Source: Candidatus Wolfebacteria bacterium GW2011_GWE2_44_13 (lineage in GTDB: Bacteria; Patescibacteriota; Minisyncoccia; UBA6257; UBA9933). Taken from it: 64,000 nucleotides of DNA. Of this stretch, positions 41,638 through 57,449 are shown piece after piece. A program made the position numbers and the translations under genes. Where the stretch lies: NCBI GenBank assembly GCA_001000675.1, contig LCHW01000001.1, forward strand, positions 218,294 through 282,293. The letters are read 5' to 3'. The first letter of the stretch is position 1. Every line of letters begins with the position of its first letter. Under the pieces are notes generated by a model that saw only the letters and a program-made list of their open reading frames with translations, was not told where the DNA came from and ran no database searches.

Positions 41638-44463
41638 ATGCAATTCAAAAACGTTGAAAAAAAGTGGAGAGCCGTTTGGGAGAAAGAGGGAATATACACC
41701 GTTAAAGATTCTGTCCCTGGCAAGAAGAATTTTTATAGTATGGTCATGTTTCCGTATCCATCTGGCAACCTGCATATTGGCCATTGGTATAACTTTGGTC
41801 CTGCGGATGTTTTTGCGCGTTTTAAGCGCATGACAGGGTTTAACGTCTTCTCCCCAATCGGATTTGATGCGTTTGGATTGCCTGCAGAAAATGCGGCTAT
41901 TAAAAATGGCATACATCCAAAAACGTGGACGTATAAAAATATTAAAACAATGACTGCTCAACTAGAGCAGATGGGCACGATGTATGATTGGGAGCGACGT
42001 GTTGTTACCGCTGACCCCGAATATTATAAATGGACGCAATGGATGTTTTTGCAGTTGTTTCATGCAGGACTTGCGTATCGCACAAAAGCGAAAGCAAATT
42101 GGTGTCCGAAAGATCATACTGTATTGGCAAATGAACAAGTTATTGATGGAAAGTGTGACCGATGTGGTACGGAAGTTGTACAGCGAAATATTGATCAGTG
42201 GCTTTTTAAAATTACTGACTACGCAGAGCGATTGCTGCAAGATCTTGAAGGGCTGGATTGGCCTGAAAAAACAAAGACCATGCAACGCAATTGGATTGGA
42301 AAATCCGAAGGCGTTACTATTAATTTCCCCCTCGTAACAAGCGAGGCAGTTGCGGTTGTCGATACTATGAAATTTAACCCATCGCTTGTGTCTTTGGTAC
42401 TTTCGGGAGAAAAATATATTAGCTATCGCTTAGAACCTAAACATATAAAGGTAGGGGATGTTTGCGGTTTAGTGCACGCGGGGACAAAAAAGCAGTTTGC
42501 ACTTGCCCGCATTACGGGAGTGGAAAAGCGCACCATGGGTGAGCTATCCGAACAAGAAGTTGGACACGAAAAATTTGCAAATCGCAAAGCGATGTACACA
42601 ACATATGCGAAGTACTACGGGAAGCCGGTTACAAATACTACGGATGTCTGGGTGTATACGTTCGAATGCATGCCTGAATCTGTTGCGGTGTTTACTACTC
42701 GAGTGGATACTATTTATGGATGTACGTATGTTGTTGTTGCGCCGGAACATGCATTAATTGAATCGTTTAAACAGCAAATCGAAAATTATAAAGCGGTTGC
42801 GACGTATGTAACTAAGTCGCGTAAAAAATTGGAGCGTGAGCGAATTATTGAAGAAAAAGAAAAGACAGGCGTTCGACTGCAGGGCGTTTCTGCAATCAAC
42901 CCATTTACGGGAGAAAGCGTTCCTGTGTTTGTTGCCGATTATGTGTTAGGGGGATATGGAACGGGTGCGGTCATGGCCGTTCCTGCACACGATGAACGTG
43001 ATTTTATATTTGCAAAACAATTTTCATTACCAATCAAAACGTCGATTGTTAATGCAAAAAAAGATGTGTCTGCTGGTTGCATGATGGACGATGGAACGCT
43101 CGTTGATTCGGAAGCATTTACGGGTATGGATTCAGCTACTGCGCGTACTCAGATGACGGCATGGCTCGAACAACAGAAGATGGGTGCGGGGAAAGTTAAT
43201 TATAAGCTACGTGATTGGCTTATTTCTCGTCAGCGCTATTGGGGATCGCCTATCCCGCTTGTATTTTGTGAACATTGCAAACAACGTATTGCAAGCGGTG
43301 ATTATAAGAAAGGGGAATTTACACAAGGAGAGCTATCCAACCCAGGATGGGTTGGCGTTGCGTCGGAAGCACTTCCCGTGCTTTTGCCATTAGTGAAGGA
43401 ATATTTACCGACTGAAGATGGTAAGTCGCCGTTGGCACATTCTAAGTCGTTTATGCGCGCTACGTGCTCAAAATGTGGCGGTAAAGGTATGCGAGAAACA
43501 GATACTATGGATACATTCGTGTGCTCTTCGTGGTACTATTTGCGCTATCCCGATCCGCAGAATGCAAAACAATTTGCGGATAAGAAAAAGCTCGCAGCGT
43601 GGCTGCCTGCCGATATGTATGTTGGTGGAGCGGAACATTCCGTTTTGCACCTTCTCTACGCACGCTTTTTTACGAAGGCACTGTATGATTTGAAGCATGT
43701 GCCATTTAAAGAACCGTTTGCTGCGTTGCGACACCAAGGGATGATTCTTGGACCTGATGGGCAGAAGATGTCGAAATCAAAAGGTAATGTGATTGATCCG
43801 GATGAGCTTGTTGGTACATTTGGTGCTGACGCAGTGCGTATGTACCTTTGTTTTATGGGTCCGTATGATCAAGGGGGAGCGTGGCAGCCAGGGGGAATGG
43901 TTGGTATTGCTCGATTTTTGCAACGCGTAGAGTCTCTGTACACTACGAATGCAAAAGATAGCGTGTGCAAAAAACCAAGCACCGCAGTCAATCCTTTGAA
44001 GAAGGTAATGCATCAGACGATAAAGAAAGTTACCGAAGATATTGCTGATTTTCATTTTAATACCGCAATAAGTTCGTTGATGATTTTACTCAATACGATG
44101 GATGAATATCGAGAACATCTTGATGGTGAGGTGCTCGAACAGTTCCTCTTATTGTTAGCGCCATTTGCACCTTATATTGCAGAGGAGTTATATCGAGAAG
44201 CGTTGGGACAAAAGAAATCGATTCACTTGGCATTGTATCCGAAATACAATCCTCATTTTACTGTGGAAAATGAATTCGATCTTGTTGTCCAAATTAATGG
44301 CAAGGTTCGTGATACTATTCGAGTGCCGAAAGGTATTACGCAAGAGCGAGCACGTGAGCTTGCGCTTACTTCGAAAAAAGTATTTGCCGTTGCTCCAGGT
44401 ATGCAGGTGCGAAAGGTTATCTTTGTGCCTGATCGATTGATTAATCTTGTTGTTGAATTATGA
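41638..44463 (+). CDS. leuS: leucyl-tRNA synthetase with a ~105-aa ASCH (YqfB-like) domain inserted at the start of the CP1 editing domain
   Basis: HIGH motif (HIGH is HIGHW here), a KMSKS-like motif (KMSKSKGN), the CP1 editing motif (TTRVDTIYGCTYVV) and the anticodon-binding domain. The inserted segment (aa ~233-349) aligns with YqfB-type ASCH domains. Confidence 0.9.
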   Translation: MQFKNVEKKWRAVWEKEGIYTVKDSVPGKKNFYSMVMFPYPSGNLHIGHWYNFGPADVFARFKRMTGFNVFSPIGFDAFGLPAENAAIKNGIHPKTWTYKNIKTMTAQLEQMGTMYDWERRVVTADPEYYKWTQWMFLQLFHAGLAYRTKAKANWCPKDHTVLANEQVIDGKCDRCGTEVVQRNIDQWLFKITDYAERLLQDLEGLDWPEKTKTMQRNWIGKSEGVTINFPLVTSEAVAVVDTMKFNPSLVSLVLSGEKYISYRLEPKHIKVGDVCGLVHAGTKKQFALARITGVEKRTMGELSEQEVGHEKFANRKAMYTTYAKYYGKPVTNTTDVWVYTFECMPESVAVFTTRVDTIYGCTYVVVAPEHALIESFKQQIENYKAVATYVTKSRKKLERERIIEEKEKTGVRLQGVSAINPFTGESVPVFVADYVLGGYGTGAVMAVPAHDERDFIFAKQFSLPIKTSIVNAKKDVSAGCMMDDGTLVDSEAFTGMDSATARTQMTAWLEQQKMGAGKVNYKLRDWLISRQRYWGSPIPLVFCEHCKQRIASGDYKKGEFTQGELSNPGWVGVASEALPVLLPLVKEYLPTEDGKSPLAHSKSFMRATCSKCGGKGMRETDTMDTFVCSSWYYLRYPDPQNAKQFADKKKLAAWLPADMYVGGAEHSVLHLLYARFFTKALYDLKHVPFKEPFAALRHQGMILGPDGQKMSKSKGNVIDPDELVGTFGADAVRMYLCFMGPYDQGGAWQPGGMVGIARFLQRVESLYTTNAKDSVCKKPSTAVNPLKKVMHQTIKKVTEDIADFHFNTAISSLMILLNTMDEYREHLDGEVLEQFLLLLAPFAPYIAEELYREALGQKKSIHLALYPKYNPHFTVENEFDLVVQINGKVRDTIRVPKGITQERARELALTSKKVFAVAPGMQVRKVIFVPDRLINLVVEL

Positions 44464-51389: not shown

Positions 51390-52459
51390 CACACGCATTT
51401 CTTATTGTAAAAATTCTCAGCTTCTTTATGGCATCATTTCTTGTTGCTATTTTATTAGCTCCGATACTCATCCATTTTTTGTATAAATATAAAGCATGGA
51501 AAAAGAAGCCAAAGGAAAAATCTATTGGTGGATATGATACGCCCGTGTTTCAAAAGTTTCACGCAAAAAAAGAAGTTTCTACTCCGCGCATGGGCGGTAT
51601 CTTAATTTGGGGGACCGTGCTGGTTATCGCAATAATCGATTTTATTCTTGTGCGCATTCTGCCGCATCCGTTATCCGAGCAAGTTGATTTCTTGAGTCGA
51701 TCACAAACATGGCTTCCATTATTCACACTCATAGCTGCATCATTGCTTGGGCTCGTGGATGATATTATGACGGTTCGCAATAGCGGAAATTATGTGAGCG
51801 GAGGATTGCGATTTAAGTGGCGGCTCGCTATTGTTTCTTTAATCGCACTTGTGGGTGCGTGGTGGTTCCATTTTAAACTTGGATGGAGCACGCTCTACAT
51901 TCCTTTTTACGGAAATCTTGAAATCGATGGATTGTATATGGTGCTCTTCGTGTTAACTATGCTCGCTACATTTTCGAGTGGCGTGGTGGATGGATTGGAT
52001 GGATTAGCTGCGGGAGTTATGATTCCGATTTTCACTGCGTTTGGAATTATTGCATATTCGCGCGGACTCTACGATCTAGTCACCTTTATCGTTATTATCG
52101 TGGGTGTGCTGTTTACGTATCTTTGGTATAACGTACCTCCCGCAAAATTTTACATGGGAGAGACGGGTATCCTCGGTCTTACGGCAGTGCTTGCAGTTAT
52201 TGCGTTTCTCACGAACTCAGTTTTCTTCCTTCCTATTATCGGCATCGTACTCGTAATCGAATCACTCTCGGTTATCATACAGCTTGTGTCGAAAAAATTG
52301 CGCAATGGGAAAAAAGTATTTATCGCTGCTCCCATCCATCATCACTTCGAAGCACTTGGTTGGAGTGAGAGTCAGATCACGATGCGCTTCTGGTTGGTTT
52401 CTGGAGTGTTCTCTGGCATTGGATTGATTCTGTATTTTTTGAGTAAGTTCTTGTATTGA
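51380..52459 (+). CDS. mraY: phospho-N-acetylmuramoyl-pentapeptide transferase
   Basis: MraY motifs TPRMGG, LGLVDD, DGLDGLA and PIHHHFE. The start may be 51380 or the Met at 51428. Confidence 0.85.
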   Translation: MYLTHAFLIVKILSFFMASFLVAILLAPILIHFLYKYKAWKKKPKEKSIGGYDTPVFQKFHAKKEVSTPRMGGILIWGTVLVIAIIDFILVRILPHPLSEQVDFLSRSQTWLPLFTLIAASLLGLVDDIMTVRNSGNYVSGGLRFKWRLAIVSLIALVGAWWFHFKLGWSTLYIPFYGNLEIDGLYMVLFVLTMLATFSSGVVDGLDGLAAGVMIPIFTAFGIIAYSRGLYDLVTFIVIIVGVLFTYLWYNVPPAKFYMGETGILGLTAVLAVIAFLTNSVFFLPIIGIVLVIESLSVIIQLVSKKLRNGKKVFIAAPIHHHFEALGWSESQITMRFWLVSGVFSGIGLILYFLSKFLY

Positions 52460-52460
52460 T

Positions 52461-52493
52461 AAAAAACAGACCCTTTGGGGTCTGTTTTTTTGG
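52461..52493. terminator. Bidirectional intrinsic terminator
   Basis: A6-CAGACCC-tttg-GGGTCTG-T7. Confidence 0.65.
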
Positions 52494-52496
52494 TCC

Positions 52497-52955
52497 TTAT
52501 ATTTCTATCCCTTTGGTACGATAGTAGTCCGAAAGATGTTGCTTGAGGTCAGCCCTTTCTTGCTCGTTTTCTATAATGTGGAATGCTATGGTAACTTGTT
52601 CTAGCTTGGCGCGTACCTCTGGGAAAGGGGATGATGTATTAACTCCTACAACCGTTTCAAGAATGTGCTTGCGCATATTGGTGGTTGACCCAATAGTGAA
52701 TGGCTTACCGGCGCAGAGCATGACATAGACCCCTGGCTTTGCGTCGAGGGCAAAGACTGTTTTTAGGGATAAGTTTGCGATCCCTTGAGGGGAGCGTCCG
52801 ATATCGAGATACCCATTTTTGCGTAATTGATCGATATGGTAGGAAACTGTGTTTGTCGAAGCCACCCCTATTTGGCGGGCAATCTCTCGAAAAGAAGGAA
52901 GTACTCCGCCGTTCTTTTCATATAGCTCTACGATTTGCTTTTGAGGTTTTGTCAT
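52497..52955 (-). CDS. LexA-type DNA-binding domain fused to a GIY-YIG nuclease domain
   Basis: The N-terminus matches the LexA wHTH (LT.KQ..V...........PSFREIARQIGVASTNTVSYHIDQLRKNGYL). The C-terminus has GIY-YIG hallmarks (GVYVM...KPFTIGSTTNMRKHILE). There is no S24 peptidase domain. Confidence 0.55.
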   Translation of the reverse strand: MTKPQKQIVELYEKNGGVLPSFREIARQIGVASTNTVSYHIDQLRKNGYLDIGRSPQGIANLSLKTVFALDAKPGVYVMLCAGKPFTIGSTTNMRKHILETVVGVNTSSPFPEVRAKLEQVTIAFHIIENEQERADLKQHLSDYYRTKGIEI

Positions 52956-53104
52956 TGGATTATATTTAGAACACGATTAGAACATTTAAATGCGACATGA
53001 TATAAGGCTCCTTATTTGTTTATAGAACAAGTATAGAACGCTTTGGATGTTTGGTCAACTGGTTTGCGGTTCTTTGTTTAGATGTATATATTAACAAGGA
53101 CTTA

Positions 53105-53130
53105 GATTCCGGCTTCCGCCGGAATGACAA
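53105..53130. repeat. Small palindromic repeat unit (GC variant ATTCCGGCG), copy 4a
   Basis: gattccggcttccgccggaatgacaa. It is inverted relative to copy 4b. Confidence 0.6.
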
Positions 53131-53193
53131 TACAAAAATACAGCACAAAGATAAGCATCCATATTTTAAGAGGAAGGTTGAGCTCCTTCGTGT

Positions 53194-53219
53194 GTCATTC
53201 CGGCGGAGGCCGGAATCCA
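53194..53219. repeat. Small palindromic repeat unit, copy 4b
   Basis: gtcattccggcggaggccggaatcca. With 4a it brackets a 63-bp AT-rich spacer. A partial unit also occurs at 53521-53535. Confidence 0.6.
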
Positions 53220-53280
53220 GTACAATAAGAACATGAAATAATATTACGTATATATCCTTGCGAGTAAGCGCAACGGTACA

Positions 53281-53517
53281 TTGTATATAGGCGTGACCAA
53301 TGATTTAAAGAGGCGAGGGTATAAGCATAAAGAAAAACTGGTAAAAGGGTTTACGAAAGTGTATAGCGTGGACAAGCTGGTTTATTTTGAAATGACAGAA
53401 AATATAACAAGCGCAATCGAAAGAGAAAAGCGGTTAAAGGAGTGGAATAGAAAGTGGAAATTAAAGTTAATTGAAAAAGAAAATCCCGAATGGAAAGATT
53501 TATATGGGATGCTCTAA
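53281..53517 (+). CDS. small GIY-YIG nuclease family protein (UPF0213/COG2827-like), N-terminus apparently truncated
   Basis: Motifs YIGVTNDLKRR...H...K...E. The family-typical residues YYVYILASKRNGTL are encoded in-frame upstream from 53242, but they follow a stop and have no ATG/GTG/TTG start. The only available start is the TTG at 53281. Confidence 0.55.
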   Translation: MYIGVTNDLKRRGYKHKEKLVKGFTKVYSVDKLVYFEMTENITSAIEREKRLKEWNRKWKLKLIEKENPEWKDLYGML

Positions 53518-54029
53518 CCTGGATTCCGGCCGGAGTTTATCCATGAACCATGGGGGTGAGCTTGTCGAACCATTGCCGAGCGGGCTCAAAGTGACAATAC
53601 AAGAACATAGAGCAAATCCCACTGTTGTAAGATTCTGACCTCCCTGCTAATCGACAGGGAGGCGCCAAAAATGACGATGGGGGCGGTCGTCCACCACCGT
53701 CATTTTCGGGAGGGTTTTGAGGTTCGTTCTTGTCGAGCAATGTGTTACTGGAATTAATTTCTAGGGTTGCTGGGTCGTGTAAAAATGGATTTTCCTATTG
53801 TGCGAGTAACGTAAGTCGCGTATACTTAAAGAAGTATTTTATACGTGGGTAATAAAAATAAATAAAGATCGAGCCTTCCTCTTGCGCGGAAACAATCGAT
53901 ACGCTTGCTCTCCTGCGATACTCTTGCGTGCATCGTTGAGCAATTATAGAAAATCTGTCATCTCCTGTTGCGAGATTATTTTTTGTTTTTATCTCTGTAT
54001 AATAAATTCTTATGTCCGTGCGTTTGCCT

Positions 54030-54073
54030 ACTTAGCACAAAGTCTCTCCTTCTCTGGAGAGACTTTGTGCTAA
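54030..54073. repeat. Perfect 19-bp inverted repeat hairpin (6-nt loop)
   Basis: CTTAGCACAAAGTCTCTCC-ttctct-GGAGAGACTTTGTGCTAAG. It abuts the duplicated tRNA-Gly fragment. Confidence 0.7.
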
Positions 54074-54079
54074 GTGTAT

Positions 54080-54326
54080 GAGCGGGTAAAGGGAAGCGCC
54101 TACAAGTCTTGTCTCGCCCTGCCTACCGGCAGGCAGGCGTCGCTCAACAAGCTCGCAGGCCGCCCCTGACTTGGCGTTGCTAGCGAGCGAAGTGAGCGTG
54201 CAACGTGCCGAAATGCCGGCGGAATATAGGGTTATAGTGAAGCCGGCCGCGATACGTCCTGCTGGACGCATATCGCTGCGGTCTTCGATTCCCTACACGA
54301 GTGAAGCAGTTCACTCGTTTTACCCG
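54080..54326. other. GC-rich (~60%) 250-bp structured element bounded by inverted copies of the tRNA-Gly 3' end. It is probably an integration scar, a miniature element or an unidentified ncRNA.
   Basis: Left end gagcgggtaaagggaa is identical to 54367-54382 of the adjacent tRNA gene. The right end ttcgattccct[23-nt hairpin]tttacccgc is the same tRNA 3' end in the opposite orientation. The interior contains several perfect hairpins. Confidence 0.5.
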
Positions 54327-54330
54327 CAAA

Positions 54331-54366
54331 CATAATAAAGCCCCAAAGGGCTTTATTATGTTTTTT
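54331..54366. terminator. 16-bp perfect palindromic hairpin flanking tRNA-Gly
   Basis: AAACATAATAAAGCCC-caaa-GGGCTTTATTATGTTT followed by T6. Confidence 0.5.
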
Positions 54367-54367
54367 G

Positions 54368-54438
54368 AGCGGGTAAAGGGAATCGAACCCTCGCTTCAAC
54401 CTTGGGAAGGTTGCGCACTACCACTATGCAATACCCGC
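54368..54438 (-). tRNA. tRNA-Gly (anticodon CCC)
   Basis: Manual cloverleaf fold on the minus strand: acceptor GCGGGTA/TACCCGC, D-stem GCAT/GTGC, anticodon stem CAACC/GGTTG with loop TTCCCAA, T-arm GAGGG-TTCGATT-CCCTT and discriminator U. CCA is not encoded. Confidence 0.8.
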
Positions 54439-54497
54439 TGTTCGGATGCTATATTAAGCTTTTGTATTATACGAAAAGAATAGGGGTTACCGCAACC

Positions 54498-55328
54498 TTA
54501 TTTGTTTGTATACGGGAAAGGCACTATCGTATCTCCATTGCGAATAGGAGTTTCTTCGAGTAGTTTTTTGCGAAGGTTTATTGCCTCGTGTAAAAAATCG
54601 ATAACCTCGGCGTTATTGGAATCGATGAGTGCCGTTAGCTCTTCAAGTTTTGTATTAAAGGTGGCGGAATCCGATTGTGTTATTACATTACCCTCGCTTG
54701 TTTGAATATATAACTCGGCAAGCTCTGGTTTGTTTGCGTGTATCGGATATGCTAAATAATCGACTGACCCCGTTATTGTATTAAGAAATCGAATTGATAA
54801 TGTGGTTTGCTTTGGGTGAAATGCTCTTTCAAAATATTGCGCACGAGTTAAGTCGTGAGTGCATGGGTTGCTTATGTTTATTGTAAATGTGTCGATGCGG
54901 TTTTGATATGGCCAACTTTTTGTAATAGTGATTAAGTCCTTTTGCCTACGGAGAGTTAGGATGCTTTTCTCGCCGCGGGTAATTGGAAATGAGTCTGCAG
55001 AATAGCTGTTCACTATTGTGCTTATATCGATTGGTTCGCAATGCATAAGATAGGGATCTACTAAGAATAGTTTTTCTTGTATAGGGCAAAGAACTGAACG
55101 ATGTCGGCCATTAATCATGTCTTCTACGAGATAGGCCTTAGAGAAGCCTGCGGCAATTAACGTATTGCGCAGAGAACGTGCCTGTTCATAACAATTTGAT
55201 CCGAATTTTTTAGACGGACGTTGTCCATCGAGAATATAGAGTGAAGCTGCCGAGCTGTATTGGAACGATAGTGAGTCGATTAGAATTTGCCTTAATTTCT
55301 GGAATTCCATATGCGCATACCATAGCAC
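54498..55328 (-). CDS. hypothetical protein with a possible Cys-His-Asp hydrolase/transferase triad (NAT/transglutaminase-like fold?)
   Basis: C(GSNCYEQA), H (31 aa later) and D (15 aa later). This spacing resembles arylamine N-acetyltransferase/transglutaminase-like cysteine enzymes. The assignment is weak. Confidence 0.35.
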   Translation of the reverse strand: MLWYAHMEFQKLRQILIDSLSFQYSSAASLYILDGQRPSKKFGSNCYEQARSLRNTLIAAGFSKAYLVEDMINGRHRSVLCPIQEKLFLVDPYLMHCEPIDISTIVNSYSADSFPITRGEKSILTLRRQKDLITITKSWPYQNRIDTFTINISNPCTHDLTRAQYFERAFHPKQTTLSIRFLNTITGSVDYLAYPIHANKPELAELYIQTSEGNVITQSDSATFNTKLEELTALIDSNNAEVIDFLHEAINLRKKLLEETPIRNGDTIVPFPYTNK

Positions 55329-55409
55329 TGCTGCGCAAAAAGGGGAATACCGCCGCTGGTATTTTGGGGTGCTTTTTGCTATACTTCGATATACACATAA
55401 GCGCCATAA

Positions 55410-57449
55410 ATGGCCTTTTATTTTCGAAGTATGGCAAAAAAAGCAGAAAACATCGAAGAATTACCTCAAGAGGAGAAAGAAGTAAAGAAGGTCGCTACTA
55501 AAAAAGGAGACGATCCTATTGATAACCGTGGAAATGCTTCCTATAGCGCCAAGGATATTCAGGTACTCGAAGGTTTAGAGCCTGTGCGTAAGCGCCCAGG
55601 TATGTATATCGGTTCAACGGGGTCGCAAGGGTTGCACCATCTTATTTGGGAAGTGTTCGACAACTCGCTCGACGAGGCTATGGCAGGATATGCCAAGCAC
55701 ATTACGGTAGAGCTTGGAAAGGATGGGTCTGTTACGGTGTCCGATGATGGACGTGGTATCCCTGTCGACATTCATCCGAAGACGAAAAAGTCTGCGCTTG
55801 AAACAGCCGCAACAACCTTGCACGCAGGAGGAAAATTTGATGGCGATTCGTATAAGGTATCTGGTGGTTTGCACGGGGTAGGACTTTCGGTTGTAAACGC
55901 GCTTTCCACATGGATGAAGATAGAAGTGTGCAAAGATGGTTCGAAGTATATGCAGGAGTACCGAATCGGTAAGCCGTTAGCTGATGTTAAAAAAATTGGC
56001 AAAGCTGAGCGAGGAAACGGAACAAAGGTTACGTTCAAGCCAGATGATACTATTTTTTCTACTCTTGAATTTGAGCGAAAAGAAATTGTCGGGCACTTGC
56101 GCCAGCAGGCGTTTCTTACTAAGGGTATCCGCATTGAAATTATCGATAGTCGAGAAGATGTGCCTTTTTACTACTCGTTCTATTTTGAAGGAGGACTTGT
56201 TTCATTTGTACAATATGTGAATAGCAGTCATACCCCCGTACATAAAGAGGTTTTTTATGTACATCGCAGCTACGAAGATATCGATGTTGAAACGGCATTT
56301 ATTTATAACGACGATCCCGATGCGCGTGAATTGAGCTTTGCAAACAATATTTATACACCTGACGGTGGTATGCATGTTACCGGTTTTCGCACTGCTTTGA
56401 CTCGTGTATTAAATGACTTTGCTCGAAGCAACAATGCAATAAAAGGATCAGATGAAAACCTAACAGGTGACGATGTGCGCGAGGGCATCACCGCAATTAT
56501 TTCTGTAAAATTGCGCGACCCACAATTTGAAGGACAGACAAAAGCTCGCCTTGGAACGCCTGCAGCACGCGGCGCAGTTGAATCTGTTGTATCGGAAGGT
56601 CTTAAAGAATATTTTGAAAAATATTCAAACGATGCAAAGGCAATCATTGAAAAATGTATGCTTGCGCAGAAAGCTCGTAAAGCTGCAAAGGCTGCAAAAG
56701 AAACCGTATTGCGTAAGGGAATGCTCGAGGGCATGACCTTGCCAGGAAAGCTTTCAGATTGCTCGAGCCGCAAAGCCGCTGACTCGGAACTCTATATTGT
56801 TGAGGGAGATTCCGCAGGAGGAAGTGCAAAGCAGGGAAGAGATCGCCGCTTTCAAGCCATTCTTCCTTTGAAGGGAAAGATTTTAAACGTTGAACGAGCC
56901 CGTTTGGATAAGATGCTTGTTAACAATGAAATCAAGTCATTGGTTATTGCATTGGGCACTGCTATTTCGGATAGCTTTGATATCGAGAAGTTGCGCTACC
57001 ATAAGGTTATCCTTATGACCGACGCCGATGTTGACGGTGCGCACATCAGAACATTGTTGCTAACATTGTTTTATCGATATTTCCGACAAATTATTGAAGG
57101 AGGATTTTTGTATATTGCACAACCACCATTGTTCCGATTACAGATTGGAAAGGATGTTCGCTACGTGTATACTCCTGAGCAGAAAGATACCGCAATCGCA
57201 GAAATGACTGCAGGGAAAAAAGGTGAAGCGAATGTTAATGTGCAGCGCTATAAGGGTCTTGGAGAAATGAACCCTGACCAGCTGTGGGAAACGACCATGA
57301 ACCCTGAATTTCGAACTCTATTGCAAGTCGCTATCGATGATGCACAAGAGGCAGATCGATTGTTTGAAATCTTAATGAGTGACGAGGTTGCCCCGAGAAA
57401 ACAATTCATCCAGTCAAAAGCTACTCTTGTAAAAAATCTCGACATCTAA
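55410..57449 (+). CDS. gyrB: type IIA topoisomerase ATPase subunit, DNA gyrase subunit B (ParE not strictly excluded)
   Basis: GHKL ATPase motifs (EVFDNSLDEAMAGY, GGLHGVGLSVVNALS), a TOPRIM domain (EGDSAGGSA), PLKGKILNVE and C-terminal GyrB motifs. Confidence 0.8.
   Translation: MAFYFRSMAKKAENIEELPQEEKEVKKVATKKGDDPIDNRGNASYSAKDIQVLEGLEPVRKRPGMYIGSTGSQGLHHLIWEVFDNSLDEAMAGYAKHITVELGKDGSVTVSDDGRGIPVDIHPKTKKSALETAATTLHAGGKFDGDSYKVSGGLHGVGLSVVNALSTWMKIEVCKDGSKYMQEYRIGKPLADVKKIGKAERGNGTKVTFKPDDTIFSTLEFERKEIVGHLRQQAFLTKGIRIEIIDSREDVPFYYSFYFEGGLVSFVQYVNSSHTPVHKEVFYVHRSYEDIDVETAFIYNDDPDARELSFANNIYTPDGGMHVTGFRTALTRVLNDFARSNNAIKGSDENLTGDDVREGITAIISVKLRDPQFEGQTKARLGTPAARGAVESVVSEGLKEYFEKYSNDAKAIIEKCMLAQKARKAAKAAKETVLRKGMLEGMTLPGKLSDCSSRKAADSELYIVEGDSAGGSAKQGRDRRFQAILPLKGKILNVERARLDKMLVNNEIKSLVIALGTAISDSFDIEKLRYHKVILMTDADVDGAHIRTLLLTLFYRYFRQIIEGGFLYIAQPPLFRLQIGKDVRYVYTPEQKDTAIAEMTAGKKGEANVNVQRYKGLGEMNPDQLWETTMNPEFRTLLQVAIDDAQEADRLFEILMSDEVAPRKQFIQSKATLVKNLDI

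What the first reader, a model, noticed from the sequence alone, without database searches (positions are those of the whole stretch)
52497..52955. Fusion of a LexA DNA-binding domain to a GIY-YIG nuclease domain
The N-terminal 65 residues match the LexA winged-helix DNA-binding domain in nearly every conserved position. The C-terminal half is not the S24 autopeptidase. It carries GIY-YIG nuclease hallmarks instead (GVYVM, KPFTIGSTTNMRKHILE). The result would be a sequence-targeted nicking or cleaving enzyme, or an SOS-box-binding nuclease. The protein is not self-cleaving, so it cannot derepress the way LexA does. It is encoded divergently from a standalone small GIY-YIG gene and a field of palindromic repeats. 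It may be a nuclease targeted to LexA-box-like sites, or a regulator of the neighbouring mobile-DNA remnants.
Basis: partly seen in the sequence, partly recalled or inferred. Interest (0 to 1): 0.55.

Follow-up and report, generated by a model that had tools for sequence, protein, structure and literature searches.

The report
LexA-type repressor with dead nuclease domain
A small gene of a Candidatus Wolfebacteria genome joins a LexA-type DNA-binding domain to a UvrC-like GIY-YIG domain that has lost its catalytic residues, so it most likely represses its own promoter through conserved GTTC-N7-GTTC direct repeats and does not cut DNA.

Summary

The nuclease reading does not hold. In 27 family members the invariant Arg is never Arg (H/D/S/F). 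The metal-binding Glu is Lys in 21 and Glu in only 1. The UvrC-lineage Asn is never present. The YIG Tyr is Thr in this protein. Both domains are still under strong purifying selection (dN/dS about 0.03-0.13).

Two GTTCTA-N5-GTTCTA direct repeats (= GTTC-N7-GTTC, the alphaproteobacterial LexA-box geometry) lie upstream of the gene. The distal one encloses the -10 hexamer. These hexamers account for 23 of the 29 invariant columns in six aligned upstream regions. The repeat recurs in 11 lineages, down to 34% protein identity. In about 265 kb examined it occurs nowhere else.

Best reading: an autoregulated repressor restricted to Wolfebacteria, with a pseudo-nuclease C-terminal domain whose role (oligomerisation or sensing) is unknown. 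Databases call it "LexA repressor". It is a new variant of a known kind and moderately interesting.

The parts
52497..52955 (-). Gene for the 152-aa LexA-wHTH / pseudo-GIY-YIG protein (stop codon 52497-52499)
   Evidence: ORF list. Identical to public proteins KKT43671.1 / EKD24429.1 (P0060). 14 close homologues of 151-153 aa.
52773..52955 (-). N-terminal LexA-type winged helix-turn-helix, residues 1-61 (Pfam match on residues 2-52)
   Evidence: PF01726, 34.2 bits against a cut-off of 23.7. The model has three helices plus a wing strand. Foldseek matches the LexA-DNA complex 3jso at probability 0.97.
52500..52772 (-). C-terminal UvrC-like GIY-YIG fold with a degenerate active site, residues 62-152. 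Equivalences to UvrC: Y77=Y19, T87=Y29, S90=K32, H97=R39, K138=E76, I150=N88.
52967..52983 (-). Proximal operator GTTCTAATCGTGTTCTA (GTTCTA-N5-GTTCTA direct repeat). Its downstream end lies 12 bp before the ATG, so it is in the 5' leader.
   Evidence: Exact motif match. Invariant hexamers in the alignment of six upstream regions. Present in orthologous loci.
53023..53039 (-). Distal operator GTTCTATACTTGTTCTA. It encloses the predicted -10 hexamer.
   Evidence: The start-to-start distance to the proximal operator is exactly 56 bp in the window and in all five Wolfebacteria orthologue loci.
53030..53058 (-). Sigma-70-like promoter: TTGACC (53058-53053), 17 nt spacer, TATACT (53035-53030)
   Evidence: Promoter scan, 10 of 12 matches. 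The same arrangement, with the -10 hexamer starting at +4 of a GTTCTA, is seen in L005, L006, L008 and L001.
52461..52491 (.). Bidirectional terminator-like hairpin (AAAAAA-CAGACCC-tttg-GGGTCTG-TTTTTTT) between the convergent mraY-like gene, which ends at 52459, and this gene
   Evidence: Read directly from the sequence. The terminator scan did not list it.

Best explanation
The gene encodes a small transcriptional repressor that controls at least its own promoter.

DNA binding. The N-terminal LexA-type winged helix recognises GTTCTA hexamers arranged as direct repeats with an 11-bp period. GTTCTA-N5-GTTCTA equals GTTC-N7-GTTC, the geometry known for alphaproteobacterial LexA boxes. Its half-site is the GTTC of the Gram-positive GAAC-N4-GTTC box.

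Repression. One repeat pair encloses the -10 hexamer, so a bound protein would occlude RNA polymerase. A second pair lies in the leader just before the start codon.

C-terminal domain. It descends from a UvrC/Cho-type GIY-YIG nuclease domain but has lost the residues that bind the catalytic metal and stabilise the transition state. It is therefore a pseudo-nuclease. It is kept under purifying selection for a non-catalytic job. The most likely job is holding neighbouring protomers together on the direct repeats, or receiving a signal that releases the repressor.

What is shown and what is inferred. Shown here: the architecture, the fold, the homology, the loss of catalytic residues, the conservation and exclusive location of the repeats, and their overlap with the promoter. 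Inferred: that this protein is the one that binds the repeats, that binding represses, and what the C-terminal domain does.
For: Architecture and fold.

Loss of catalytic residues: three independent alignments give the same register. It is anchored by the hydrophobic pattern of the arginine helix and by L141/Y145/R146/K148 = UvrC L79/Y83/R84/K86.
- Across 27 distinct family sequences, the R39-equivalent is H13/D10/S3/F1.
- The E76-equivalent is K21/A2/R1/E1/H1/L1.
- The N88-equivalent is never N.
- The GIY Tyr is Y22/F4/C1.
- PMC3045582 names the invariant Arg and the metal-anchoring Glu as the core of GIY-YIG catalysis.

Selection: pS about 0.4-0.8 against pN 0.02-0.25. dN/dS is 0.03-0.30 for the N-terminal domain and 0.08-0.14 for the C-terminal domain where computable.

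Operators:
- Two exact sites lie in the window, against an expectation of 0.23 even allowing one mismatch.
- The four hexamers supply 23 of the 29 invariant columns in the alignment of six upstream regions. Synonymous sites in the coding sequence are near saturation.
- The pair recurs in front of family genes in 11 lineages down to 34% protein identity, in different genomic contexts.
- In about 265 kb (window plus loci), every exact match lies no more than 90 bp upstream of a family gene on the same strand. The one exception is L028, where it lies upstream of insertions placed in front of the gene.
- The -10 hexamer lies inside the repeat in most loci. In L007 it lies directly upstream of the repeat, and in L020/L021/L023/L026 the repeat abuts the ATG.

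The GTTC-N7-GTTC direct repeat is a documented LexA-box type (PMC8565304; PMC4951493).
Against: - No binding or expression data exist. Another factor, such as a canonical LexA encoded elsewhere in the genome, could be what binds the repeats.
- The catalytic-residue mapping rests on sequence alignment. I could not superpose the model on UvrC coordinates.
- Y77, G89 and E133 are retained, and His97/Lys138 are themselves conserved. An unorthodox active site cannot be formally excluded. Hpy188I already replaces the YIG Tyr by Lys (PMC3045582).
- Only 64 kb of the genome was visible, so the regulon beyond the gene itself is unknown.
- The repeat is absent or reduced to single hexamers in the most distant members (L011, L012, L013, L025, L027).
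Confidence: 0.65

Rival explanations
1. First reader's reading. The protein is an active, sequence-targeted GIY-YIG nickase or nuclease that the LexA-type domain delivers to GTTC repeats.
For: The GIY-YIG fold and homology are real. The GIY Tyr (Y77), the hairpin Gly (G89) and a conserved Glu (E133) are present in this protein. I-TevI shows that a GIY-YIG enzyme tethered to a DNA-binding domain can act at defined sites (own knowledge).
Against: The invariant Arg is never present and the metal-binding Glu is present in only 1 of 27 family members. The UvrC-lineage Asn is never present. The GIY Tyr is Phe or Cys in 5 members. E133 aligns with UvrC E71, not the catalytic E76. The only sites found are in the gene's own promoter, and cleavage there would be self-destructive.
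Confidence: 0.06
2. A non-proteolytic SOS-like repressor. The dead UvrC-type domain senses DNA damage. It could, for instance, dock on UvrB-DNA pre-incision complexes or on distorted or single-stranded DNA. That would pull the LexA-type domain off GTTC-N7-GTTC boxes, replacing RecA-stimulated self-cleavage.
For: The DNA-binding domain and the operator geometry are LexA-like. The C-terminal domain is specifically UvrC-like rather than like the neighbouring small GIY-YIG genes. It is under purifying selection although catalytically degenerate. The gene is autoregulated in the way lexA is.
Against: No repair gene with the box was found, although no repair gene was seen in the window at all. In UvrC the UvrB contact is made by a separate domain that is absent here (own knowledge). 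The flanking genes concern cell wall and division (mraY, S11 peptidase, scpB, gyrB; in distant relatives a receiver domain, an ABC transporter and mraZ) rather than repair.
Confidence: 0.1
3. A regulator or immunity factor for small mobile GIY-YIG elements. The pseudo-nuclease domain or the operators are functionally tied to the small GIY-YIG genes that repeatedly sit next to this gene.
For: Small GIY-YIG ORFs lie within about 1.2 kb of the family gene in 5 of about 16 distinct loci, and only one weak hit lies elsewhere in about 186 kb of unique sequence. In L028, two GIY-YIG ORFs flanked by inverted repeats sit exactly between the operator and the regulator's ATG, so they would be co-transcribed from the regulated promoter.
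Against: The closest orthologues (L001, L003, L005, L006) have no small GIY-YIG gene nearby, yet they keep the gene and both operators. The positions and orientations of the small genes vary. The long intergenic region upstream may simply tolerate insertions. The C-terminal domain is not similar to the small GIY-YIG proteins.
Confidence: 0.08
4. The GTTCTA repeats are operators of a different regulator, and this gene is merely one of its targets. The protein itself would bind some other sequence.
For: GTTC-based direct repeats are bona fide boxes for canonical LexA in some phyla. A paper on Patescibacteria is cited for a direct-repeat LexA motif but could not be read.
Against: The repeats travel with the gene through different genomic contexts and are found nowhere else in about 265 kb. 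That pattern is what autoregulation predicts.
Confidence: 0.1

Closest known systems
LexA (PF01726 wHTH + PF00717 S24 peptidase), especially alphaproteobacterial LexA, which binds GTTC-N7-GTTC direct repeats
   Same: LexA-type winged helix above the Pfam threshold. Operators in its own promoter. GTTC half-site, and a direct-repeat geometry identical to the alphaproteobacterial box.
   Different: No S24 domain, no conserved Ala-Gly bond and no Ser/Lys dyad, so RecA-stimulated self-cleavage is impossible. It scores far below the lexA equivalog cut-off. No SOS gene was seen under its control.
N-terminal GIY-YIG domain of UvrC / Cho (PDB 1ycz)
   Same: Best structural and sequence match, including the helix before the GIY strand, the GVY...IG hairpin, E71 and the L-x3-Y-R-x-K tail.
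   Different: R39, E76, N88 and K32 are all replaced, and in this protein Y29 as well. There is no UvrB-binding, RNase H-like or HhH domain. The protein ends right after the GIY-YIG fold.
I-TevI homing endonuclease acting as autorepressor (own knowledge; Edgell et al. 2004, not checked here)
   Same: A GIY-YIG domain tethered to a sequence-specific DNA-binding domain occupies an operator over its own promoter without cutting it.
   Different: I-TevI is catalytically active and has the opposite domain order (nuclease N-terminal). It uses a different DNA-binding domain and is encoded in a mobile intron.
Non-canonical LexA of Bacteroidetes (PMC8565304)
   Same: An SOS-type repressor family made by domain swapping within the LexA scheme.
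   Different: It is the mirror image. Bacteroidetes keep the S24 peptidase and swap the DNA-binding domain. Here the LexA DNA-binding domain is kept and the peptidase is replaced.
LexA_DNA_bind-only and tandem LexA_DNA_bind proteins from metagenomes (P0020, P0021, P0025, P0031, P0038, P0043)
   Same: LexA-type wHTH without an S24 peptidase.
   Different: These carry one to four wHTH copies and no GIY-YIG-like domain.

Membership tests
LexA repressor (TIGR00498; PF01726+PF00717) | N-terminal LexA-type winged helix-turn-helix | tested here: met
   PF01726, residues 2-52, 34.2 bits against a cut-off of 23.7. Foldseek match to the LexA-DNA complex 3jso, probability 0.97.
LexA repressor (TIGR00498; PF01726+PF00717) | C-terminal S24 peptidase domain with Ser-Lys dyad | tested here: not met
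   No PF00717 hit at E<=10. The C-terminal fold is alpha/beta GIY-YIG, not the S24 beta-barrel.
LexA repressor (TIGR00498; PF01726+PF00717) | Conserved Ala-Gly scissile bond in a linker | tested here: not met
   The only A-G dipeptide (A82-G83) lies in the turn of the GIY-YIG hairpin. It reads AN, AD, NG or DG in homologues.
LexA repressor (TIGR00498; PF01726+PF00717) | Whole-protein score above the NCBIfam equivalog cut-off | tested here: not met
   28.8 bits against 110.95, N-terminal part only.
LexA repressor (TIGR00498; PF01726+PF00717) | LexA-box-type operators in its own promoter (autoregulation) | tested here: met
   Two conserved GTTC-N7-GTTC direct repeats, one over the -10 hexamer. 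Binding itself was not tested.
LexA repressor (TIGR00498; PF01726+PF00717) | RecA-dependent induction and control of DNA-repair genes | not testable with these tools
   Only 64 kb of the genome plus flanks of homologous loci was visible. No repair genes were seen in the window.
GIY-YIG nuclease superfamily (PF01541) | GIY-YIG fold: hairpin, arginine helix, linker strand, glutamate helix | tested here: met
GIY-YIG nuclease superfamily (PF01541) | Detectable sequence homology | tested here: met
   Family profile against UvrC E 3.5e-5. hhalign 94.9%, E 4.4e-8. However, the query alone gives no Pfam hit. 7 of 17 members give sub-threshold PF01541 hits, best E 2.2e-4.
GIY-YIG nuclease superfamily (PF01541) | GIY tyrosine (proposed general base) | tested here: met
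   Y77 in this protein. Y22/F4/C1 across the family.
GIY-YIG nuclease superfamily (PF01541) | YIG tyrosine | tested here: not met
   T87 in this protein. Y12/F7/H5/T2/L1 across the family.
GIY-YIG nuclease superfamily (PF01541) | Invariant arginine of the arginine helix | tested here: not met
   H97 aligns with UvrC R39. H13/D10/S3/F1 across the family, never Arg. The feature is defined in PMC3045582.
GIY-YIG nuclease superfamily (PF01541) | Metal-anchoring glutamate of the glutamate helix | tested here: not met
   K138 aligns with UvrC E76. K21/A2/R1/E1/H1/L1 across the family.
GIY-YIG nuclease superfamily (PF01541) | [quoted passage not shown] | tested here: not met
   I150 aligns with N88. 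Never Asn in 27 sequences. The feature is described in PMC1564403.
GIY-YIG nuclease superfamily (PF01541) | Metal-dependent DNA cleavage | not testable with these tools
   Needs biochemistry.
UvrC / Cho excinuclease | UvrB-binding, RNase H-like and HhH domains after the GIY-YIG domain | tested here: not met
   The protein ends at residue 152, directly after the GIY-YIG fold.

The most novel reading that the evidence does not exclude
This Wolfebacteria family is a LexA substitute that works without proteolysis. The catalytically dead UvrC-type domain would act as the damage sensor, recognising distorted or single-stranded DNA or the UvrB pre-incision complex. Its engagement would release the LexA-type domain from GTTC-N7-GTTC boxes. 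That would be a new kind of SOS switch in a reduced-genome lineage.
Probability: 0.1. Interest if true: 0.8.

Novelty: new variant of a known kind. Interest (0 to 1): 0.5.

Why it matters
All known SOS-type repressors (LexA, HdiR, UmuDAb and the Bacteroidetes non-canonical LexA) keep the S24 self-cleaving domain and vary the DNA-binding domain. This family does the reverse. It keeps a LexA-type DNA-binding domain and a LexA-type box, and replaces the peptidase with an inactivated DNA-repair nuclease domain.

Three consequences follow:
- Public annotations ('LexA repressor') are wrong in a way that would mislead reconstructions of the SOS response in Candidate Phyla Radiation bacteria.
- It is a clean example of a pseudo-nuclease recruited into a transcription factor. 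The operator is sharply defined and easy to test by gel shift and reporter assay.
- If the dead UvrC domain proves to be a damage sensor, it would reveal a non-proteolytic route to DNA-damage-responsive gene control.

Tried and rejected
- **Cryptic S24 peptidase in the C-terminus.** Rejected: no Pfam hit and a different fold.
- **C-terminal domain derived from the neighbouring small GIY-YIG gene type.** Rejected: hhalign probability 3%, against 95% for UvrC.
- **Wider regulon.** No further GTTCTA-N5-GTTCTA site, even with one mismatch, in the 64-kb window. None away from family genes in about 200 kb of related loci. Ten large window ORFs scanned with Pfam include no repair genes.
- **Closest S24-bearing LexA found by the DNA-binding domain (P0032).** Its upstream region has no GTTC repeats and is GC-rich, so it is uninformative.
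- **AlphaFold-database fold search.** The library was not available.
- **The Patescibacteria SOS paper (Sanchez-Osuna 2017).** Not held. I know only that later papers cite it for a direct-repeat LexA motif.
- **Rfam scan of 52400-55500.** Found only tRNA-Gly.
- **PHROGs.** wHTH hits only; nothing for the C-terminal domain.
- **Literature searches** for LexA + GIY-YIG, Wolfebacteria + LexA, and the 2006 GIY-YIG phylogenomic survey. No description of this architecture.
- **A 10-codon upstream ORF over the proximal operator in the window.** It is not conserved in orthologues (by eye), so I treat it as chance.

Full report
**1. Is it there?**

It is identical to public proteins KKT43671.1 and EKD24429.1. 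It is 99% identical to KKR12738.1 of Candidatus Wolfebacteria bacterium GW2011_GWC2_39_22. These entries are annotated 'LexA repressor', 'LexA repressor DNA-binding domain-containing protein' or 'hypothetical protein'.

- Pfam LexA_DNA_bind matches residues 2-52 with 34.2 bits, above the 23.7 cut-off.
- The NCBIfam lexA equivalog scores 28.8 against a cut-off of 110.95 and covers only the N-terminus.
- No S24 peptidase match appears at any threshold.

**2. The C-terminal half**

The query alone gives no Pfam GIY-YIG hit, and phmmer against the PDB gives only E about 0.9 to UvrC. The family as a whole settles the question.

- An AlphaFold model built on 14 homologues (pLDDT 84.4, pTM 0.62) shows helix 64-69, strands 75-81 and 84-91, helices 94-103 and 112-116, strand 121-127 and helix 131-147.
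- The Foldseek top eight hits are all UvrC GIY-YIG domains, probability 1.00.
- A profile of the family's C-terminal domain (alignment A2) hits UvrC in the PDB at E 3.5e-5 over 83 columns.
- hhalign against UvrC residues 1-93 gives 94.9% probability, E 4.4e-8.
- Seven of 17 family C-terminal domains give sub-threshold PF01541 hits, and no other family recurs.

So the fusion of a LexA-type wHTH to a GIY-YIG domain is real. The GIY-YIG domain is specifically UvrC/Cho-like. It does not resemble the small GIY-YIG ORF next door (hhalign probability 3%).

**3. Is it a nuclease?**

HMMER, hhalign and an independent MAFFT alignment give the same register. The register is anchored in two ways. The hydrophobic pattern of the arginine helix lines up (M94/I98 = UvrC L36/L40). 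The tail motif also lines up (L141-x3-Y145-R146-x-K148 = UvrC L79-x3-Y83-R84-x-K86).

PMC3045582 defines the catalytic core as the GIY Tyr, the nearly universal YIG Tyr, an invariant Arg on the 'arginine helix', and a Glu on the 'glutamate helix' that anchors the single metal ion. [quoted passage not shown]

| UvrC residue | This protein | 27 distinct family sequences |
|---|---|---|
| Y19 (GIY Tyr) | Y77 | Y22 / F4 / C1 |
| Y29 (YIG Tyr) | T87 | Y12 / F7 / H5 / T2 / L1 |
| K32 | S90 | S16 / E7 / Y1 / Q1 / A1 / T1 |
| R39 (invariant Arg) | H97 | H13 / D10 / S3 / F1, never Arg |
| E76 (metal-binding Glu) | K138 | K21 / A2 / R1 / E1 / H1 / L1 |
| N88 | I150 | never Asn |

The conserved E133 aligns with UvrC E71, not with E76.

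The replacement residues are themselves conserved: Asp or His at position 97 and Lys at position 138. The D97 forms look like a charge-swapped filling of the former active site, but that is my inference.

Both domains are under strong purifying selection. pS is 0.4-0.8 against pN of 0.02-0.25. dN/dS is 0.03-0.30 for the N-terminal domain and 0.08-0.14 for the C-terminal domain where it can be computed. The domain is therefore functional, but almost certainly not as a canonical nuclease.

**4. The operator**

Read in the gene's orientation, the upstream region contains GTTCTAtacttGTTCTA (53039-53023) and GTTCTAatcgtGTTCTA (52983-52967). With up to one mismatch, these are the only two matches in the 64-kb window, against an expectation of 0.23.

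- The same two pairs occur, exactly 56 bp apart, in front of the orthologues in L001, L003, L005/L017/L018 and L006/L019.
- In an alignment of six upstream regions, 23 of the 29 invariant columns belong to the four hexamers. Synonymous sites in the adjacent coding sequence are near saturation.
- The pair also precedes much more distant family members. L008 (34% identity) has two pairs. L007 (48%) has one pair with an N6 spacer. In L020, L021, L023 and L026 (38-41%) it reads GTTCTATAATTGTTCTATG or GTTCTATAAATGTTCTATG. There it contains a -10-like hexamer (TATAAT, or TATAAA in L023) and abuts the start codon, which points to a leaderless transcript.
- The genomic contexts differ between these lineages.
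- In about 265 kb (window plus all loci), every exact match lies within 90 bp upstream of a family gene on the same strand. The single exception is L028, where it precedes insertions placed in front of the gene.
- The best sigma-70-like promoter in the window is TTGACC-17-TATACT (53058-53030). Its -10 hexamer lies inside the distal repeat. The same relation holds in L001, L005, L006 and L008. In L007 the -10 lies directly upstream of the repeat.

GTTCTA-N5-GTTCTA equals GTTC-N7-GTTC, the direct-repeat LexA box of the Alphaproteobacteria. GTTC is also the half-site of the GAAC-N4-GTTC box of Firmicutes and Actinobacteria (PMC8565304; PMC4951493).

The simplest reading is negative autoregulation by promoter occlusion. 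Protomers would sit one helical turn apart on the same face of the DNA.

**5. Context and distribution**

- In the close Wolfebacteria group the gene is monocistronic. It lies between gyrB (divergent, across a long intergenic region) and a convergent mraY - S11 peptidase - scpB block.
- A bidirectional terminator-like hairpin at 52461-52491 separates it from mraY.
- In more distant members the gene is followed, co-directionally and closely, by a receiver-domain protein, an ABC ATPase, a MacB/FtsX-type permease, and then mraZ-rsmH.
- The family is small. Among 1.84 billion representative proteins, only six reach E<=1e-10 (five are full-length relatives), plus one stand-alone C-terminal domain, P0027.
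- Every member that carries an organism name is Candidatus Wolfebacteria.
- Genome and metagenome scans added 2 and 12 further full-length loci.

**6. Comparison with known systems**

The protein works like a LexA-type autorepressor at the DNA-binding end. It fails the defining LexA features: no S24 domain, no scissile bond, and a score below the equivalog cut-off.

It is a structural and evolutionary member of the GIY-YIG superfamily, UvrC branch. It fails four of the five catalytic-residue tests.

The closest functional analogy I know is I-TevI repressing its own promoter without cutting it (own knowledge, not checked here). The closest evolutionary analogy is the Bacteroidetes non-canonical LexA (PMC8565304), which is the mirror-image swap.

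I found no description of this architecture in the held literature. One relevant paper, Sanchez-Osuna et al. 2017 on the Patescibacteria SOS network, could not be read.

**7. Verdict**

- The nuclease interpretation is not supported.
- The regulator interpretation is supported, in the specific form of an autoregulated repressor that binds GTTC-N7-GTTC.
- The role of the pseudo-nuclease domain is the open and interesting question. It could be oligomerisation on direct repeats, damage or partner sensing, or a link to the small GIY-YIG elements that cluster beside the gene.
- Novelty: new variant of a known kind.
- Interest: 0.5.

Noticed in passing
window 53233-53517 (+): The neighbouring small GIY-YIG gene reads MK*YYVYILASKRNGTLYIGVTNDLKRR..., with an in-frame TAA at codon 3 (53239-53241). 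The canonical GIY strand lies after the stop. The first start codon after it (TTG at 53281) would remove that strand. It is therefore probably a pseudogene or an unusual start.
   Followed up: partly
window 53100-53149, 53193-53217, 53517-53616: Self-complementary repeats of the type TGTCATTCCGGC-loop-GCCGGAATC flank the small GIY-YIG ORF. Two are direct copies and one is inverted. Similar GTCATTCC...GGAATC hairpins lie upstream of family genes in L012, L013 and L020. They have no Rfam family.
   Followed up: partly
L028 2316-2919 (also L025 35-342): Two small GIY-YIG ORFs sit exactly between the operator GTTCTATAATTGTTCTA and the regulator's ATG. Each is bounded by terminal inverted repeats (2332-2347 / 2600-2615, 16 nt, 100%; 2619-2641 / 2897-2919, 23 nt, 91%). 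Short duplicated flanks (TTCTA; TATG) border them. Relatives L021 and L026 show the empty site. These look like very small mobile units carrying only a GIY-YIG gene.
   Followed up: partly
window 53242-53514; L007 5462-5725; L013 5076-5381; L020 5178-5465; L025/L028: Small GIY-YIG ORFs lie within about 1.2 kb of the family gene in 5 of about 16 distinct loci. Only one weak hit lies elsewhere in about 186 kb of unique sequence. The cause could be insertion-site preference, a permissive intergenic region, or a functional link; this is unresolved.
   Followed up: partly
window 54079-54098 and 54366-54385; tRNA-Gly(CCC) 54367-54438 (-): A 20-nt direct repeat (95% identical) copies the 3' end of tRNA-Gly 287 bp away, as at an attachment-site scar. 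Perfect hairpins lie nearby at 54030-54075 (20-bp stem) and 54328-54363 (16-bp stem).
   Followed up: no
window 54498-55328 (-): A 276-aa ORF between tRNA-Gly and gyrB has no Pfam match at E<=1e-5. It is absent from the corresponding gyrB-regulator spacer of L001.
   Followed up: no
window 41638-44463 (+): The leucyl-tRNA synthetase carries an ASCH domain (PF04266, residues 244-344, E 7.4e-8) inserted just before the editing domain.
   Followed up: no
L020 4316-4334, L021 1804-1822, L023 1043-1061, L026 424-442: In these distant family members the operator contains a -10-like hexamer (TATAAT; TATAAA in L023), and its last base is the A of the ATG. This implies a leaderless mRNA whose start site lies inside the operator.
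   Followed up: partly
proteins P0020, P0021, P0025, P0031, P0038, P0043 (metagenomes, not in the window): These proteins consist of two to four tandem LexA_DNA_bind domains without an S24 peptidase. That is another way to read direct repeats with LexA-type winged helices.
   Followed up: no
L008 5516-8497, L011 1435-4455, L013 4503-8414: In distant family members the regulator gene is followed in the same direction by a stand-alone receiver domain, an ABC ATPase and a MacB/FtsX-type permease. The mraZ-rsmH start of the division cluster comes next in L011 and L013. This may be an operon under the same operator.
   Followed up: no
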